From positions 1-64,000 of IMG/VR virus record IMGVR_UViG_2713896899_000007: DNA of 64,000 bases; one strand, written 5' to 3'. Positions within the stretch are counted from its first letter, which is position 1. The number at the start of each line of letters is the position of its first letter. Shown piece after piece: positions 60,068 through 63,744 of this stretch. The DNA comes from a virus (Duplodnaviria; Heunggongvirae; Uroviricota; Caudoviricetes). The notes under the pieces were generated by a model. The model did not search any database. It was not told the origin of the DNA and saw nothing but the letters and a program-made list of their open reading frames with translations. Made by a program: the position numbers and the translations under genes.

Positions 60068-60712
60068 CTAATGAACGGTTACTCGGCCACAGAACCGGTT
60101 TTCTATCTTTTCTACAGCGTTATCTAGCATTCTCATCACTGATCTGGCTCTTGCTTCAACCGTGCGATATCGGTTGGAAACGACGAAGGTTTGCAGATCT
60201 CCCCTTTGCGGATGCAGGTGAATTTTTGTCAGTTCCCCGCACATCAACGCATCAATACGAGCGACATACAGACGGTCTAATGATGCTCGTTGTGATCGCA
60301 AGTAATCTCGCTCTGAGAGAGCGACTCCCGGGCGTAAGCCAGCAATGGCGTTAAAGTTTGAAATAGCAGTTTTGTGGCAAAACTTTTCGATATCGAGGGC
60401 TAACTCAATACACCGATCTTCATTTGTATGGCCGACCAAATCCAACGTGTAGGCCATAACATCAGCAGGTGTGCGATCGATAACAAAGCCTTCAACACCA
60501 CGCGTAAGTAGCTCTATATGCTTTGCTATTTCCATTTGAATCTGAAGCCGCTCATATAGAGGCATAGACTCACCTACTCGAACACCGAGGCGGCTCATCA
60601 AACTTCCGACACCAGCATCCACGTAAGGGATTCCGTAATGTTTGTCGATATATTTAGCCAGGGTTGTTTTCCCACTGCCCTGAGCACCAGTGATCCCAAT
60701 CCGGTAATCCAT
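60068..60712 (-). CDS. P-loop nucleotide kinase (probable dNMP kinase)
   Basis: Walker A GAQGSGKTT at N-terminus; placement beside DHFR and ThyA-like genes. Confidence 0.6.
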   Translation of the reverse strand: MDYRIGITGAQGSGKTTLAKYIDKHYGIPYVDAGVGSLMSRLGVRVGESMPLYERLQIQMEIAKHIELLTRGVEGFVIDRTPADVMAYTLDLVGHTNEDRCIELALDIEKFCHKTAISNFNAIAGLRPGVALSERDYLRSQRASLDRLYVARIDALMCGELTKIHLHPQRGDLQTFVVSNRYRTVEARARSVMRMLDNAVEKIENRFCGRVTVH

Positions 60713-61188
60713 TACGACCTTCTGTATACGATCTGCGAAAAGCCAGGCTCTTCCTCGCTGGCTCGTTGGGTATAAGCTGTTTCAACAGGCACAAAGCCTA
60801 AGTTACGCATCATGCTTGCCGGGAAGAATGCATCGGCGTTTGGTACATCAACGCCGATGTGGGAGAGCCAAATCTCTTCAACATGCGGCATGAATAGCGA
60901 GTAAATTTGTTCCCCGCCAATCACCCACACAGGCTCTGGTAATCGCAACACATCATCCACACCAGCAGGGTAGAATCCATTTGGTACAAAGCCATGAGAG
61001 CGCGTCAAAACGAGGTTATGACGCTCTGGAAGAGGGCGTTTGAGACTTTCCATCGTTTTACGCCCCATAACGACAGTGGCGTTTTTGGTGAGTCTCTTAA
61101 ATAGCTTCAGATCGGTAGAACAACGCCAGGGCAGTTCGTTCGCTATGCCGATCTCATAGTTACGGCCAACAGCAGCTATCATCTTCAT
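60712..61188 (-). CDS. dihydrofolate reductase
   Basis: MIAAVGRNYEIG...LPW...VMGRKT..S...PLP.R.N.VL...VIGG pattern of FolA. Confidence 0.8.
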   Translation of the reverse strand: MKMIAAVGRNYEIGIANELPWRCSTDLKLFKRLTKNATVVMGRKTMESLKRPLPERHNLVLTRSHGFVPNGFYPAGVDDVLRLPEPVWVIGGEQIYSLFMPHVEEIWLSHIGVDVPNADAFFPASMMRNLGFVPVETAYTQRASEEEPGFSQIVYRRS

Positions 61189-61646
61189 TTGCTCACCTCA
61201 TAGATGACCGGTCTATGATGAGAGTCAGCTAAAGCGGCACGGAGTCGAGGATCGTGCACCAGCGCAGCGATAAGCAGATCGCCTTTATGCTCCGCTAATG
61301 TGCGCTTAATATGCTTCTCATAACTGGTGCCATTCGGTACAAGATGAAGCCAGTCGTAATCAACGCCAAAATCTTTCAGCCATCGTTTAGTGGGCGCTTC
61401 AAGAGTTTCAGAGCGGCTACTGATAAGCACCACTTCAGCCCCTGAGCGAGCAAAACCACGCAACATACGGCTGGTGGGGAAAATGAGTTCATCACCGGCA
61501 ATGAGCTGGCCTGCATCCGCGTCAGATACAGATTTACGATGGCTGGTATTTGCCAGCACACCTTCAATTTCGCATAAGACATACATACCTCTTGCCATAT
61601 CACACCGCCACTGGAACCTTGATCCACGGTAGAGGGTCATAGCCAA
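61185..61646 (-). CDS. HAD-like fold protein with E-x-E in place of the D-x-D nucleophile motif (tentative)
   Basis: YVLCEIEGVL, VVLISSRSE, GDLLIAALVHD; start may be internal. Confidence 0.35.
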   Translation of the reverse strand: MAMTLYRGSRFQWRCDMARGMYVLCEIEGVLANTSHRKSVSDADAGQLIAGDELIFPTSRMLRGFARSGAEVVLISSRSETLEAPTKRWLKDFGVDYDWLHLVPNGTSYEKHIKRTLAEHKGDLLIAALVHDPRLRAALADSHHRPVIYEVSK

Positions 61647-62730
61647 GAATCAGAATATCGTCCCATTTGAAATCATCCAGCTCAGACCATTCATGAGGGA
61701 AAATAACGACCGGATCTGAATGCTCTGGAGCCTGTCGTTTCATTAGCTCACACACACTTTCCATGTGGTTATTGTATAAATGCACGTCAAAGCCAAAATG
61801 CACAAATGCACCGGCCATGTGACCCGTAATCTTCGCGAGAAAATGAGTGAGAATGCCATAGCCAGCAATATTGAATGGCATACCAACAAAAGTGTCTACG
61901 CTACGCTGTACGAGGCAGGAGTTGAGGATGCGTTTGGGGATTCCAAGTTCATCCAGTTCAGTTTCAGTAACACTGCCGTCCATCTCCAGATCGTATAGCA
62001 TCTTGGTGTAGATAGACTCGTAACCGAGGCGACTGTGTTGAAGACCAATGTCTGTTGCCATCGTTAAACGAGTTTCAAAATCAAGCTCACGACTCCACAA
62101 AGAGAAGGCAAAGTGGCAAGGTGGCAGTTTCATATCCTCAAGCTCGCCTACGTTCCATGCGTTAAGCATGATGCGACGATCGGTAGGGTTCGTGCGCAGT
62201 GTATCGACAATACGCTGTAGCTGATCGATTTCACGGGACAGCACTACGCGATCTTCACTGATACCCAGGTATCCCTCGACTTTGTACCCGCGTTCACGGA
62301 AAGTATCGATCTTGCTCAGATATTCACTATGGCTCACGATGCGGGTATCTTCCCATCGACGCCACTGCTTACCGTAAACCGGCCCCAAATCGCCATTCTC
62401 ATCGGCCCATGCATCCCAAATTTTAACGCCGTTATCCTTGAGAAATTGGATGTTGCCCGTGCCTTTCAGATACCACTCAAGTTCGACAAGTAGTGGCTTA
62501 AGATTTACCGCCTTTCCAGAAATAAGCGGCACAGTCCCACCAGTAAGCATGTAGTAAGAGGGAACGTAGCAGGTGCTTAAAGTACCAGTGCCTGTGCGAT
62601 CATCAGCCTGCACGCCGCTTTTAAGCACCGTCTCAATAACTTTTGCATACGATGCGTTTGTTACCTGACCGTTCGTATGCTCACGATTCAAAAGGAGTGA
62701 CACAAAAACCTCACAAAGATAAGTAACCAC
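61600..62730 (-). CDS. thymidylate synthase family enzyme (ThyA-like) with two large insertions
   Basis: [36 protein letters not shown] (catalytic Cys), MPFNIAGYG (Asn, uracil-type), DVHLYNNH. Confidence 0.8.
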   Translation of the reverse strand: [376 protein letters not shown]

Positions 62731-62874
62731 TTATTCATTGCGTGAGTTTACATTCATTGAGAGAACAAGACCAGACAGATAAAAAAATGGTGGCCATAGG
62801 CCACCAAAAACGAATAGTTGTTTCAGAAATTTAACGCGCCAACGCAATATACACAGATAGATAACTACCTACAA

Positions 62875-63744
62875 TTATTTTTTGATCATTCCGTACATTG
62901 CTGAGGCTTTAGCTTGCTCAACAAAGGAGGATAAATCGACATCACTATAGGTTGGAGACTTCAGAATCTTTCCATCGGAAATTCGAAAACCGATCATCTT
63001 ATCGGTGCCATCAGCATGGCGAAATCCCAGGTCAGAAGAGTCGTATTTGCAGTTGGCCACAGCATGGCGACGCTCTTCGGCATCTGCAGGCCATAATTTT
63101 GTCATGTTGGACCGATGAATTTCGCCAACCAGCTCGACGACATTGATACCGAGGAAATCAGCCAGTCGATAGGTCATCATGCACGCCACATAGATTTTGT
63201 TCATTACACGGCGCAGTTCCTGAATCAGCTCAGAATCCTTAACAGTCTTGTTCTCAAGTTTATCTGCCAGCTCTTCGAGCATACATGACGCCTCACGAGC
63301 TTCCTGAAATGGCATTGCCATATCATCGAAAACAGTGTTACCAGGCACAAAAATTGTCTGCATAAAGCGATCAATGCTCTGTTCCTGCGTGTAATAGGTC
63401 ATGCCGGTAGAAATACCACCTTTGATGGCGACCATCGTACCAACACCAACGTATAAAAAGTCGGCCATTGCATCCAGCAGTTGCTCAATATCCCCATTCA
63501 TTGCGGCTGGAATACCTTCCACTACAGCTTCTTCATGAATCAGGCTTGCACGGAGACGAAGCAGCTCTGGTGTCGGCATAACGCGTCTCGGATGCTGGAA
63601 GAGTTCATGAAACTGATCGACCATCTTGTAAATACTTTCAGTGGCTACACCATGGCCTTCATGCAACTCATATGGTTCTGGCTTAAATCCAATGAGTCGA
63701 TCGGTGGCAAGTTTCAGGTGGTCAGTCAGTTTGGTAAAGTTCAT
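62875..63744 (-). CDS. hypothetical protein, possible all-alpha NTP pyrophosphohydrolase (MazG-like), low confidence
   Basis: helical protein with EE-containing segments; placement in nucleotide-metabolism cluster. Confidence 0.3.
   Translation of the reverse strand: MNFTKLTDHLKLATDRLIGFKPEPYELHEGHGVATESIYKMVDQFHELFQHPRRVMPTPELLRLRASLIHEEAVVEGIPAAMNGDIEQLLDAMADFLYVGVGTMVAIKGGISTGMTYYTQEQSIDRFMQTIFVPGNTVFDDMAMPFQEAREASCMLEELADKLENKTVKDSELIQELRRVMNKIYVACMMTYRLADFLGINVVELVGEIHRSNMTKLWPADAEERRHAVANCKYDSSDLGFRHADGTDKMIGFRISDGKILKSPTYSDVDLSSFVEQAKASAMYGMIKK

What the first reader, a model, noticed from the sequence alone, without database searches (positions are those of the whole stretch)
60068..63744. 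Nucleotide-metabolism cluster in a lambdoid-tailed temperate element: ThyA-family enzyme with two long insertions, DHFR, P-loop kinase, HAD-like protein
ThyA-like, DHFR and kinase genes are adjacent and start/stop-coupled, resembling the dTMP-synthesis cassettes of virulent T4/T5-type phages rather than lambdoid prophages. The ThyA-like protein keeps the catalytic Cys (PPCH), the uracil-selecting Asn (FNIAGYG), Arg21 and His/Tyr residues, but carries two insertions (about 35 and 50 aa), making it 376 aa. DHFR beside it argues for a true dihydrofolate-producing thymidylate synthase, but a dUMP hydroxymethylase feeding a thymidine modification cannot be excluded from sequence. The HAD-like protein has E-x-E instead of D-x-D and the last gene is only tentatively MazG-like.
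Basis: partly seen in the sequence, partly recalled or inferred. Interest (0 to 1): 0.5.

Follow-up and report, generated by a model that had tools for sequence, protein, structure and literature searches.

The report
Phage-plasmid thymidylate supply gene cassette
This is the ordinary, already annotated thymidine-nucleotide supply module (true thymidylate synthase, the DfrA51-type trimethoprim-resistant DHFR, a nucleotide-kinase-like protein, a degenerate phosphatase-like protein and a MazG-like pyrophosphatase) of a common SSU5-like phage-plasmid of E. coli, not a DNA-modification system.

Summary
Five minus-strand genes lie at 60068-63744, and thyA, the HAD-like gene, dfr and the kinase gene are start/stop-coupled (TGAtATG, ATGA, TAATG).

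The stretch is 100% identical to E. coli plasmid p009_B. It is 98% identical to the SSU5-like phage-plasmids Cyrano, PhiR41_1 and CMS-2020a. It occurs in 233 of 5,426 complete E. coli genomes and is annotated there.

The ThyA-like protein is a bona fide thymidylate synthase:
- It scores 222 bits on the equivalog model TIGR03284 (cutoff 108). SPO1 dUMP-hydroxymethylase scores 58 and T4 dCMP-hydroxymethylase scores 31.
- All E. coli catalytic residues and the C-terminal PVAV are conserved.
- The predicted fold matches E. coli TS (TM 0.94).
- Its two insertions (+34 and +51 aa) are confidently structured and are shared by many phage TS. The likely start gives 367 aa, not 376.

The DHFR is 91% identical to DfrA51, which has been shown experimentally to be trimethoprim-resistant. 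The P-loop protein has a dNK/TMPK/NadR-type kinase fold and is not a 5-hmdU DNA kinase. No hypermodification genes were found in the element.

The HAD-like protein is a PNKP-phosphatase homologue. Its nucleophile Asp is Glu here and is D, A, T or G in syntenic orthologues, so it probably does not act as a canonical phosphatase.

Verdict: already known, low interest.

The parts
62875..63744 (-). MazG-like all-alpha NTP pyrophosphohydrolase (289 aa). It has an approximately 85-aa insertion and a C-terminal extension relative to the minimal fold. It follows nrdA-nrdB.
   Evidence: Pfam PRA-PH 1.3e-08 and phrog_671 'nucleotide pyrophosphohydrolase' 1.1e-47. The best PDB relative is the MazG-like protein DR2231, matching residues 51-104 and 190-217 (E about 1e-3). 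RefSeq names it 'pyrophosphohydrolase domain-containing protein'.
62788..62806 (-). Terminator-like hairpin (TGGTGGCC-TAT-GGCCACCA followed by T7) between the MazG-like gene and thyA.
   Evidence: Consensus scan and sequence read. Function was not tested.
61600..62703 (-). thyA: folate-dependent thymidylate synthase, 367 aa from GTG 62703. The mechanical ORF extends to 62730. It carries two structured insertions, at residues about 118-158 and about 206-259.
   Evidence: Pfam 266 bits. TIGR03284 gives 222 bits against a cutoff of 108. All catalytic residues are invariant. AF2 pLDDT is 94.6. Foldseek TM is 0.94 to E. coli TS.
61185..61598 (-). HAD-fold protein (137 aa), a PNKP-phosphatase homologue. 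Motif I is E-I-E instead of D-x-D, and motif IV is degenerate.
   Evidence: phrog_5387 8e-90. A family profile hits the phosphatase domain of Pnkp1 (4XRP) at 8.8e-06, aligning CEIDGVL with CDLDGTL. E10 is invariant in the clade. Syntenic orthologues carry D, A, T or G at that position.
60712..61188 (-). DHFR, a dfrA51 allele (158 aa).
   Evidence: Pfam DHFR_1 1.6e-34. NCBIfam trim_DfrA51 gives 338 bits against a cutoff of 322. It is 91% identical to SSU5 DfrA51, with A6, I13, D26 and S48 kept. RefSeq gene name is dfrA51. Function was shown in PMC12217456.
60068..60712 (-). P-loop nucleoside/nucleotide-kinase-fold protein (214 aa, AAA_28/NadR-Ttd14-like). Walker A is GAQGSGKTT. It has a DRTPxDVxAY motif and an Arg-rich lid.
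   Evidence: Pfam AAA_28 38 bits against a cutoff of 27. AF2 pLDDT is 88.8. Foldseek top PDB hits are deoxyadenosine kinase, thymidylate kinase and the NadR RNK domain, with TM 0.5-0.6. In the viral library the top hits are AAA_28/NadR-like proteins and thymidylate kinases, with TM up to 0.82.

Best explanation
The region is the deoxythymidylate-supply part of the nucleotide-metabolism and replication module of an SSU5-like phage-plasmid of E. coli. The element is p009_B/Cyrano-like, about 110 kb, a siphovirus with lambda-like tail genes, kept as a low-copy plasmid.

Gene order on the minus strand is nrdA-nrdB-mazG-like | thyA-HAD-like-dfr-kinase-hyp-dnaQ-like exonuclease-hyp-dam.

Proposed mechanism, with the basis for each step:
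1. NrdAB make dNDPs. This follows from the annotation.
2. The MazG-like NTP pyrophosphohydrolase probably converts dUTP (or dCTP) to the monophosphate, which cleans the pool and feeds dUMP. This is inferred.
3. ThyA methylates dUMP with CH2-THF to give dTMP plus dihydrofolate. The enzyme class is shown by sequence and structure. The activity itself was not assayed.
4. The DfrA51-type DHFR regenerates tetrahydrofolate. Its activity and reduced trimethoprim affinity were shown experimentally for the 91%-identical SSU5 orthologue.
5. The translationally coupled P-loop kinase most likely phosphorylates dTMP or another d(N)MP or nucleoside. Its fold is shown. Its substrate is inferred, at roughly 40-50% for dTMP.
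6. The HAD-like protein is a catalytically degenerate PNKP-phosphatase homologue. It is retained in the cassette for a role that is not a canonical phosphatase role, probably binding or scaffolding. This is inferred.

The module serves the element's own T4-like replisome during lytic growth. As a side effect it places a trimethoprim-insensitive DHFR in the host.
For: Identity of the element:
- 98% nucleotide identity over 57-64 kb to Escherichia phages CMS-2020a, PhiR41_1 and Cyrano, and 75% to Salmonella phage SSU5.
- The whole window is colinear with Cyrano.
- 100% identity to plasmid NZ_CP048306.1.
- Present in 233 of 5,426 complete E. coli genomes, with 235 of 237 places on plasmids, and in 680 PLSDB plasmids of Klebsiella, Escherichia, Enterobacter, Salmonella and other genera.
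- Cyrano is an inducible siphovirus phage-plasmid at about 5.5 copies per cell (PMC9928086).

Thymidylate synthase:
- PDB phmmer gives 2e-64 to 6e-61 against bacterial TS.
- TIGR03284 gives 222 bits, above the cutoff of 108.
- The equivalents of R21, E58, W80, W83, Y94, R126, R127, C146, H147, R166, S167, D169, N177, H207 and Y209 are invariant in 20- and 61-sequence alignments, and the sequence ends in PVAV.
- The AF2 model has pLDDT 94.6 and TM 0.94 to E. coli TS ternary complexes.

DHFR.

Kinase fold. hhalign against a canonical phage TMPK aligns the P-loop and the DR..AY motif (E 1.3e-4). Insert-bearing TS genes in other large phage contigs have a canonical thymidylate kinase nearby instead.

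Cassette conservation: the thyA-HAD-DHFR-AAA_28 order persists down to 46-51% TS identity in a Photobacterium chromosome and in metagenomic contigs.

Coupled junctions.
Against: - No enzyme of this exact element has been assayed. TS activity is inferred from sequence and model only.
- The kinase's best Pfam family (AAA_28, NadR/Ttd14) includes ribosylnicotinamide kinases. Structural matches to dNK, TMPK and NadR are about equally good (TM about 0.6), so dTMP as substrate is a guess.
- The similarity of the MazG-like protein to DR2231 is marginal (E about 1e-3), and its substrate is unknown.
- In Cyrano lysogens these genes were not among those expressed above background (PMC9928086). Any contribution to host trimethoprim resistance in the natural context is therefore unproven. 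The published MICs come from cloned, expressed genes.
Confidence: 0.88

Rival explanations
1. The ThyA-like protein is a dUMP (or dCMP) hydroxymethylase. Together with the P-loop kinase (acting as a 5-hmdU DNA kinase or hm-dNMP kinase), the HAD-like phosphatase (dTMPase) and the MazG-like enzyme (dTTPase/dUTPase), it replaces or hypermodifies thymidine in virion DNA.
For: - The protein is long (367 aa), like the 351-383-aa dUMP hydroxymethylases of M6 and SPO1.
- A kinase, a phosphatase-like gene and an NTP pyrophosphatase lie next to it. This loosely resembles the dTTP-exclusion and 5-hmdU pathways described in PMC8989533.
Against: - The extra length lies in two internal insertions that SPO1 gp29 and T4 gp42 lack. 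The extra length of gp29 is C-terminal.
- Identity to gp29 and M6 gp58 is 21% over partial alignments.
- TIGR03284 scores are 222 for the query against 58 for gp29 and 31 for gp42, with a cutoff of 108. The Pfam TS score is 266 against 66 for M6 gp58.
- The folate-side residues W80 and W83, the residue H147 and the C-terminal PVAV that closes the TS active site for hydride transfer are all kept.
- A functional DHFR is translationally coupled downstream. Hydroxymethylases release THF and do not need one (PMC4528723).
- The kinase does not hit Pfam HMUDK_HMUD1, whereas M6 gp54 does at 65 bits. hhalign shares only the 24-residue P-loop.
- No AADT or HMUDK homologue is found anywhere in the window or in the whole Cyrano genome.
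- The HAD-like protein lacks the nucleophile Asp.
Confidence: 0.02
2. The HAD-like protein and the P-loop kinase together are a split polynucleotide kinase-phosphatase (T4 Pnkp-like) for nucleic-acid end healing. They are only fortuitously embedded between thyA and dfr.
For: - The HAD-like protein is homologous to PNKP phosphatase domains: Pfam HAD_PNKP, phrog_415 and phrog_505 'polynucleotide kinase', and PDB Pnkp1 4XRP at 8.8e-06.
- Cyrano annotates it as a T4 Pnkp homologue.
- The element encodes a DNA ligase.
Against: - The nucleophile Asp is Glu here and is A, T or G in syntenic orthologues, and motif IV is lost. A 3'-phosphatase activity is therefore unlikely.
- The kinase model matches dNK, TMPK and NadR kinases. 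No polynucleotide kinase appears among the top 50 PDB hits.
- The fixed position inside a translationally coupled thyA...dfr...kinase operon across distant lineages argues for a nucleotide-pool role.
Confidence: 0.05
3. The cassette is maintained mainly as a host-benefiting trimethoprim-resistance or folate-stress moron (dfrA51 plus thyA) rather than as a phage replication function.
For: - Cloned dfrA51 raises the trimethoprim MIC 128-fold in both hosts, and DfrA51 binds the drug about 9-fold more weakly than FolA (PMC12217456).
- RefSeq and AMRFinder name the gene as a resistance gene.
- The element is common in clinical Enterobacterales.
Against: - The cassette sits inside the replication and nucleotide module (nrdAB, exonuclease, dam). 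It is syntenic in environmental relatives such as Photobacterium and in metagenomic contigs, where clinical trimethoprim selection is irrelevant.
- No IS elements or integrons flank it.
- These genes were not among the Cyrano genes expressed in lysogeny.
- Phage DHFRs are often intrinsically insensitive to trimethoprim (PMC12466917).
Confidence: 0.05

Closest known systems
Nucleotide-metabolism module of Salmonella phage SSU5 (SSU5_078-086) and of E. coli phage-plasmids Cyrano (CYRAN_69-77), PhiR41_1, CMS-2020a and plasmid p009_B
   Same: The gene order, gene lengths and gene junctions are the same. Nucleotide identity is 75% to SSU5, 98% to Cyrano and 100% to p009_B.
   Different: There is nothing of substance. 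The differences are allelic only; for example, the DHFR is 91% identical to SSU5 DfrA51.
E. coli ThyA and other classical folate-dependent thymidylate synthases (Pfam PF00303, TIGR03284)
   Same: The full catalytic residue set and the C-terminal PVAV tail are present. The predicted fold has TM 0.94, with 44-47% identity over aligned columns.
   Different: There is an N-terminal extension of about 17 aa. There are two structured insertions (+34 aa in the small-domain loop at E. coli residues about 101-107, and +51 aa in the hairpin at about 154-158). No solved TS has either insertion, but many phage TS share them.
DfrA51 (trimethoprim-resistant DHFR of SSU5, NG_242639; Wang et al. 2025, PMC12217456)
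   Same: It is 91% identical and passes the curated NCBIfam cutoff. The residues A6, I13, D26 and S48, which were shown by mutagenesis to matter, are retained.
   Different: There are 15 substitutions. The resistance level of this allele was not measured.
T4 td-frd-(gene 1 dNMP kinase) and T5-type dTMP cassettes of virulent phages
   Same: TS lies next to DHFR, and ribonucleotide reductase and a nucleotide kinase are in the same genome. The pathway logic is the same.
   Different: The element is temperate and plasmid-borne. The kinase is AAA_28-like rather than T4 gp1 or a canonical TMPK. A degenerate HAD protein is inserted between TS and DHFR.
dUMP/dCMP hydroxymethylases (SPO1 gp29, M6 gp58, T4 gp42) with 5-HMUDK/AADT thymidine hypermodification systems
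   Same: They share the TS superfamily fold and the catalytic Cys. A P-loop kinase lies in the neighbourhood.
   Different: Identity is only 21-27%. The folate-side and C-terminal TS signatures that this protein keeps are absent in the hydroxymethylases. The kinase gives no HMUDK Pfam match, no AADT is present, and a DHFR is present.
PNKP-type HAD phosphatase domains (T4 Pnkp; Capnocytophaga Pnkp1, PDB 4XRP)
   Same: Homology is detectable over about 110 residues. The motif II Ser-Arg region and the WL..G..YD core are shared.
   Different: The motif I nucleophile Asp is Glu. The motif IV DD is degenerate. The protein stands alone at 137 aa. A clade-specific C-terminal H-[KR]-P motif is present.

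Membership tests
Classical thymidylate synthase (ThyA, EC 2.1.1.45) | Passes the curated equivalog model score | tested here: met
   TIGR03284 gives 222 bits against a cutoff of 108.35. The negative controls score 58.2 (SPO1 gp29) and 30.6 (T4 gp42).
Classical thymidylate synthase (ThyA, EC 2.1.1.45) | Catalytic Cys146-His147, the dUMP-phosphate arginines R21, R126', R127' and R166, the uracil-selecting N177, and E58, Y94, D169, H207 and Y209 | tested here: met
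   All are invariant columns in alignments A1 and A5 that include E. coli ThyA.
Classical thymidylate synthase (ThyA, EC 2.1.1.45) | Folate-side W80/W83 and a free C-terminal (P)VA(I/V) tail, used for active-site closure and hydride transfer. The role of the tail is from established TS enzymology (my knowledge). | tested here: met
   [21 protein letters not shown] and the terminal IKVPVAV are present. Both are absent in SPO1 gp29 and T4 gp42.
Classical thymidylate synthase (ThyA, EC 2.1.1.45) | TS fold | tested here: met
   AF2 pLDDT is 94.6. Foldseek gives E 1e-32 and a target-normalised TM of 0.94 to E. coli TS.
Classical thymidylate synthase (ThyA, EC 2.1.1.45) | Produces dTMP plus dihydrofolate | not testable with these tools
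   This needs an enzyme assay or thyA complementation. Indirect support comes from the translationally coupled functional-type DHFR.
dUMP/dCMP hydroxymethylase | Sequence clusters with characterised hydroxymethylases (SPO1 gp29, M6 gp58, T4 gp42) | tested here: not met
   BLASTP finds only 21% (gp29, M6 gp58) identity over partial alignments, and tblastn about 27% for T4 gp42, with E values of 0.026, 2e-4 and 0.013. The architecture of extra segments also differs.
Thymidine hypermodification system (5-HMUDK + AADT/aGPT-Pplase) | A P-loop kinase of Pfam family HMUDK_HMUD1 (PF18748) | tested here: not met
   The window kinase gives no hit at E<=0.01. The positive control M6 gp54 gives 65 bits. 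hhalign aligns only the P-loop.
Thymidine hypermodification system (5-HMUDK + AADT/aGPT-Pplase) | An amino acid:DNA transferase (PF18724) is encoded in the element | tested here: not met
   tblastn with M6 gp51 against the window and the whole Cyrano genome gives nothing below E 0.9. This is a weak method for remote homologues.
DfrA51 trimethoprim-resistant DHFR | Passes the curated NCBIfam exception-model cutoff and retains the mutagenesis-defined residues | tested here: met
   338.2 bits against a cutoff of 322. It is 91% identical, with A6, I13, D26 and S48 kept.
DfrA51 trimethoprim-resistant DHFR | Confers a raised trimethoprim MIC | not testable with these tools
   This was shown for the SSU5 allele only (PMC12217456).
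HAD-superfamily phosphatase (PNKP type) | Motif I DxD, with Asp as the nucleophile | tested here: not met
   The motif is E-I-E here, and the Glu is invariant in the clade. Syntenic orthologues have D, A, T or G at that position. All 122 remote relatives that align across motif I have DxD.
HAD-superfamily phosphatase (PNKP type) | Motif IV acidic pair (DD or ED) | tested here: not met
   The query has a single D (VHDPRL). This D is absent in many clade members, which have IGRS, GCS or VAS.
HAD-superfamily phosphatase (PNKP type) | Overall sequence homology to the fold | tested here: met
   The family profile matches the 4XRP phosphatase domain at E 8.8e-06 over 111 positions. The Pfam HAD_PNKP score of 23.1 bits is below the cutoff of 27.6.
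Nucleoside/nucleotide kinase (dNK / TMPK / NadR-RNK fold) | Walker A, a DR-type motif after strand 3, an Arg-rich lid, and the kinase fold | tested here: met
   GAQGSGKTT and the invariant D79-R80-T81-P82, R127, R139 and R142 are present. AAA_28 scores above its cutoff.
Thymidylate kinase (PF02223) | Matches the family model | tested here: not met
   There is no PF02223 hit. The only support is phrog_2107 'thymidylate kinase' at 2.9e-10 over the N-terminal half and an hhalign E of 1.3e-4 to a phage TMPK. The protein may work like a TMPK, but it is not a family member.
SSU5-like phage-plasmid | Colinear genome with SSU5-group structural, partition and replication genes | tested here: met
   The window is colinear with Cyrano at 96-98% identity. 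This covers terminase, capsid, lambda-like tail, ParB, UvsW and the nucleotide module. Identity to SSU5 is 75%.

The most novel reading that the evidence does not exclude
The conserved, translationally coupled thyA-pseudoHAD-dfr-kinase cassette may encode a physical dTMP 'metabolon'. In this reading, the two phage-specific TS insertion domains and the catalytically dead PNKP-like HAD protein act as docking or scaffold elements. They would channel dihydrofolate and dTMP between TS, DHFR and the kinase, in a non-covalent analogue of protozoan DHFR-TS. A variant of this reading is that the Glu-for-Asp HAD protein has acquired a new activity that is not a phosphatase activity.
Probability: 0.1. 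Interest if true: 0.45.

Novelty: already known. Interest (0 to 1): 0.15.

Why it matters
Practically, it matters little beyond what is already recorded. The cluster is carried by about 4% of completely sequenced E. coli and by hundreds of Klebsiella, Enterobacter and Salmonella plasmids. Its DHFR is already tracked as the resistance gene dfrA51.

Two results here are useful:
- The thymidine-modification idea can be closed from sequence alone, using authentic hydroxymethylases and a 5-HMUDK as controls.
- Two small details appear not to have been described. The first is a widespread phage TS subfamily with two structured insertion domains. The second is a HAD-like cassette gene that is conserved although its catalytic nucleophile is not. 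It may be a pseudoenzyme worth a biochemical look.

Tried and rejected
1. Hydroxymethylase and hypermodification reading. It was tested with positive controls fetched from T4 (gp42), SPO1 (gp29) and M6 (gp51 AADT, gp54 5-HMUDK, gp58 dUMP-HMase) and was rejected.

2. Sequence-profile search of the kinase family against the PDB. Apart from a weak deoxyguanosine kinase match, it found only P-loop matches, to adenylate kinase 9, ABC-F proteins and AAA+ ATPases. It was uninformative about substrate.

3. Foldseek of the kinase model. dNK, TMPK, NadR and shikimate kinase all matched at a similar TM (0.45-0.61), so the substrate remains unresolved. The viral library added only unnamed AAA_28 proteins at the top.

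4. Word-indexed homologue searches for the kinase and the HAD-like protein. They returned only SSU5-group proteins. Wider relatives of the HAD-like protein needed the full HMMER scan.

5. Test of whether the TS insertions depend on the cassette. They do not. Insert-bearing TS also occur in large phage contigs that lack DHFR, the HAD-like gene and the AAA_28 kinase nearby.

6. Promoter scan. No sigma-70-like promoter was found upstream of thyA, and the overall hit count was below the shuffle expectation.

7. Literature searches for functional work on the SSU5 or pHCM2 thymidylate synthase. None was found.

8. Two frameshifted database entries (P0166, P0168) distorted the first kinase alignment and were removed.

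Full report
**1. What is there**

Window 57-64 kb carries a run of minus-strand genes. In the order of transcription they are:
- the end of nrdB, beyond 63.8 kb
- a MazG-like gene, 63744-62875
- thyA, 62703-61600
- a HAD-like gene, 61598-61185
- dfr, 61188-60712
- a P-loop gene, 60712-60068
- a 139-aa unknown
- a DnaQ-like exonuclease
- a 269-aa unknown
- a Dam methylase

Pfam, PHROGs and NCBIfam agree on these assignments. The junctions read from the sequence are TGA-t-ATG, ATGA and TAATG. The last four genes of the finding therefore form a translationally coupled unit. A terminator-like hairpin (62806-62788) separates that unit from the MazG-like gene. The TS is more likely 367 aa, starting at GTG 62703 with a GAGG 5 nt upstream. 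This agrees with homologue N-termini and with all public annotations.

**2. What element it is**

The region is 98% identical to Escherichia phages CMS-2020a, PhiR41_1 and Cyrano, and 75% identical to Salmonella phage SSU5. The whole 64-kb window is colinear with Cyrano at 96-98% identity. This covers terminase, capsid, lambda-like tail genes M/L/K/I/J, ParB and UvsW. The 3.7-kb finding is 100% identical to E. coli plasmid p009_B (NZ_CP048306.1). RefSeq labels its genes as thymidylate synthase, hypothetical protein ('HAD family hydrolase' in sister records), dfrA51 and AAA family ATPase.

The cluster occurs in 233 of 5,426 complete E. coli genomes, almost always on plasmids of about 110 kb. 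It also occurs in 680 PLSDB plasmids across Enterobacterales. SSU5 is a textbook phage-plasmid (PMC7969092). Cyrano (pLF82) is an inducible siphovirus kept at about 5.5 copies per cell (PMC9928086). The element also encodes DnaB-like helicase, primase, ligase, Pol III alpha, a gp32-like SSB, UvsY, RecA/UvsX-like, UvsW, SbcCD, RuvC, NrdAB and glutaredoxin. This explains why its nucleotide genes look 'T4/T5-like'. A published survey found dfr and thyA 13- and 10-fold enriched in lytic over temperate phages (PMC12466917).

**3. Thymidylate synthase or hydroxymethylase?**

The protein matches bacterial TS structures at E about 1e-61 to 1e-64. It passes the TS equivalog model TIGR03284 with 222 bits against a cutoff of 108.

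As negative controls I fetched authentic hydroxymethylases. SPO1 gp29 (dUMP-HMase) scores 58 bits and T4 gp42 (dCMP-HMase) scores 31 bits on the same model. M6 gp58 (dUMP-HMase) scores 66 bits on Pfam TS against 266 for the query. Pairwise identity to gp29 and gp58 is 21%.

In alignments of 20 and 61 sequences that include E. coli ThyA, the following equivalents are invariant: R21, E58, W80, W83, Y94, R126, R127, C146, H147, R166, S167, D169, N177, H207 and Y209. The chain ends in IKVPVAV, like E. coli IKAPVAI. gp29 and gp42 lack the W80/W83 segment, H147 and this tail. The extra length of gp29 is a C-terminal extension, not internal insertions.

The AlphaFold model (pLDDT 94.6) superposes on E. 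coli TS ternary complexes with a target-normalised TM of 0.94. Together with the coupled DHFR, which hydroxymethylases do not need (PMC4528723), this settles the enzyme class as far as sequence can.

**4. The insertions**

Both insertions are predicted with high confidence:
- Insertion 1 (residues about 118-158 of the 367-aa protein) forms strands plus two short helices.
- Insertion 2 (about 206-259) forms three helices.

Homologous insertions at the same two sites occur throughout SSU5-like elements of Klebsiella, Enterobacter, Raoultella, Providencia, Morganella and Xenorhabdus. They also occur in a Photobacterium chromosome, and in shorter or longer form in TS from 100-370-kb metagenomic contigs and in phage Goslar. 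They are therefore a feature of a broad phage TS subfamily and not of this locus. No solved TS has them. Their function is unknown. They occur both with and without the DHFR/HAD/kinase cassette.

**5. DHFR**

The 158-aa protein passes the curated NCBIfam model for DfrA51 (338 bits against a cutoff of 322). It is 91% identical to SSU5 DfrA51, with A6, I13, D26 and S48 retained. Wang et al. (PMC12217456) showed that cloned dfrA51 raises the trimethoprim MIC from 2-4 to 256-512 mg/L. They also showed that DfrA51 binds the drug about 9-fold more weakly than FolA. The enzyme type is therefore experimentally a working DHFR.

**6. P-loop protein**

Its conserved features are Walker A GAQGSGKTT, an invariant DRTPxDVxAY motif and conserved lid arginines. 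The AF2 model has pLDDT 88.8. Its best structural neighbours are deoxyadenosine and deoxynucleoside kinases, thymidylate kinases and the NadR ribosylnicotinamide-kinase domain, with TM 0.5-0.6. Among viral models the best neighbours are unnamed AAA_28/NadR-Ttd14 proteins (TM about 0.8) and phage thymidylate kinases.

It is not a 5-hmdU DNA kinase. It gives no PF18748 hit, whereas the M6 gp54 control scores 65 bits. hhalign shares only the P-loop with gp54.

Three observations support a dTMP-kinase-like role. All three are circumstantial.
- Its position is coupled to dfr.
- hhalign aligns its P-loop and DR..AY motif to a canonical phage TMPK (E 1.3e-4).
- Other phages with insert-bearing TS carry a canonical TMPK nearby instead.

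**7. HAD-like protein**

A family profile hits the phosphatase domain of Pnkp1 (PDB 4XRP) at 8.8e-06, aligning CEI[ED]GVL with CDLDGTL. Glu at the nucleophile position is invariant in the SSU5 clade.

A full HMMER scan of 1.84 billion representatives was analysed over its best 150 hits. Among the hits that align across motif I, only the nearest relatives deviate, carrying E, A, T or G at that position. All 122 remote relatives that align there keep DxD.

In syntenic cassettes, motif I reads as follows:
- DLD in Photobacterium
- DID in contig L009
- GFV in contig L016

Motif IV (DD) is missing across this subfamily, and a C-terminal H-[KR]-P motif is shared. The gene is thus kept in a fixed position while its catalytic nucleophile drifts. 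This argues for a role that is not a canonical phosphatase role. I cannot say what that role is.

**8. MazG-like protein**

It matches PRA-PH/MazG over residues 42-106. Its marginal best PDB relative is the MazG-like protein DR2231 (E about 1e-3), split by an insertion of about 85 aa. From my own knowledge, DR2231 is reported as dUTP-preferring. That would fit a dUMP-feeding and pool-sanitising role, but this is inference.

**9. Hypermodification genes**

tblastn with M6 AADT, 5-HMUDK and gp55 against the window and the complete Cyrano genome found nothing.

**10. Verdict**

The hydroxymethylase alternative is excluded. The locus is an already sequenced, annotated and partly characterised part of a common phage-plasmid family. 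The residual novelty is limited to the undescribed TS insertion domains and the degenerate HAD-like cassette gene.

Noticed in passing
window 61185-61598 (-); loci L012:9076-9516, L009:7250-7705, L016:6136-6576: The HAD-like gene keeps its slot between thyA and dfr across distant elements, but its motif I nucleophile varies. It reads DLD, DID, EIE/EID, GFV, ALD or TLD. Motif IV is missing and a C-terminal H-[KR]-P motif is shared. It looks like a conserved pseudo-phosphatase.
   Followed up: partly
loci L009, L012/L013 (Photobacterium CP071326), L016: The whole cassette order is syntenic down to 46-51% TS identity: MazG-like ... thyA, HAD-like, DHFR, AAA_28 kinase, a small hypothetical protein and an RNase_T exonuclease, with a methylase downstream (PF05869 Dam in L016, an N6_Mtase match in the Photobacterium loci; L009 lacks the exonuclease and methylase). 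One copy lies in a 2-Mb Photobacterium chromosome record.
   Followed up: partly
loci L014:2679-3335 and L015:1881-2534: Large phage contigs whose TS also carries the two insertions encode a canonical thymidylate kinase (PF02223) 2-3 kb upstream, and no AAA_28 kinase, DHFR or HAD-like gene in the flanks inspected. This hints at non-orthologous displacement of the kinase.
   Followed up: partly
window 41508-43670 (-) and 43699-44799 (+): A full-length methionyl-tRNA synthetase with a C-terminal tRNA-binding domain lies divergent from an Mrp/ApbC-type ParA-family P-loop protein. From memory, this arrangement resembles the E. coli chromosomal metG-mrp pair, so it may be a captured host locus on the phage-plasmid. 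It is also annotated in Cyrano.
   Followed up: partly
window 30000-37000: The G+C content falls to 0.37-0.42, against about 0.47-0.50 elsewhere. The dip coincides with stretches that do not align to Cyrano (for example 32070-33214, 34715-35181 and 36463-37219). ORFs there have no Pfam match. This is probably a variable accessory region.
   Followed up: no
window 62788-62806 (-): A strong terminator-like hairpin (8-bp stem with 6 GC pairs, followed by T7) lies between the MazG-like gene and thyA. It suggests that the nrdAB-mazG and thyA-kinase units are separate or attenuated transcripts. No sigma-70-like promoter was detected upstream of thyA.
   Followed up: no
window 59587-60006 (-) and 58050-58859 (-): Two conserved proteins of unknown function (139 aa, phrog_5373; 269 aa with an acidic N-terminus, phrog_5235) flank the DnaQ-like exonuclease. 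They have no Pfam or NCBIfam match. A protein of similar size occupies the first slot in the distant cassettes L012 and L016.
   Followed up: no
window 62875-63744 (-): The MazG-like protein is twice the length of minimal MazG/DR2231-type enzymes. It has an insertion of about 85 aa between the helices that carry the metal-binding motifs, and a C-terminal extension of about 70 aa. Neither segment matches any family.
   Followed up: no
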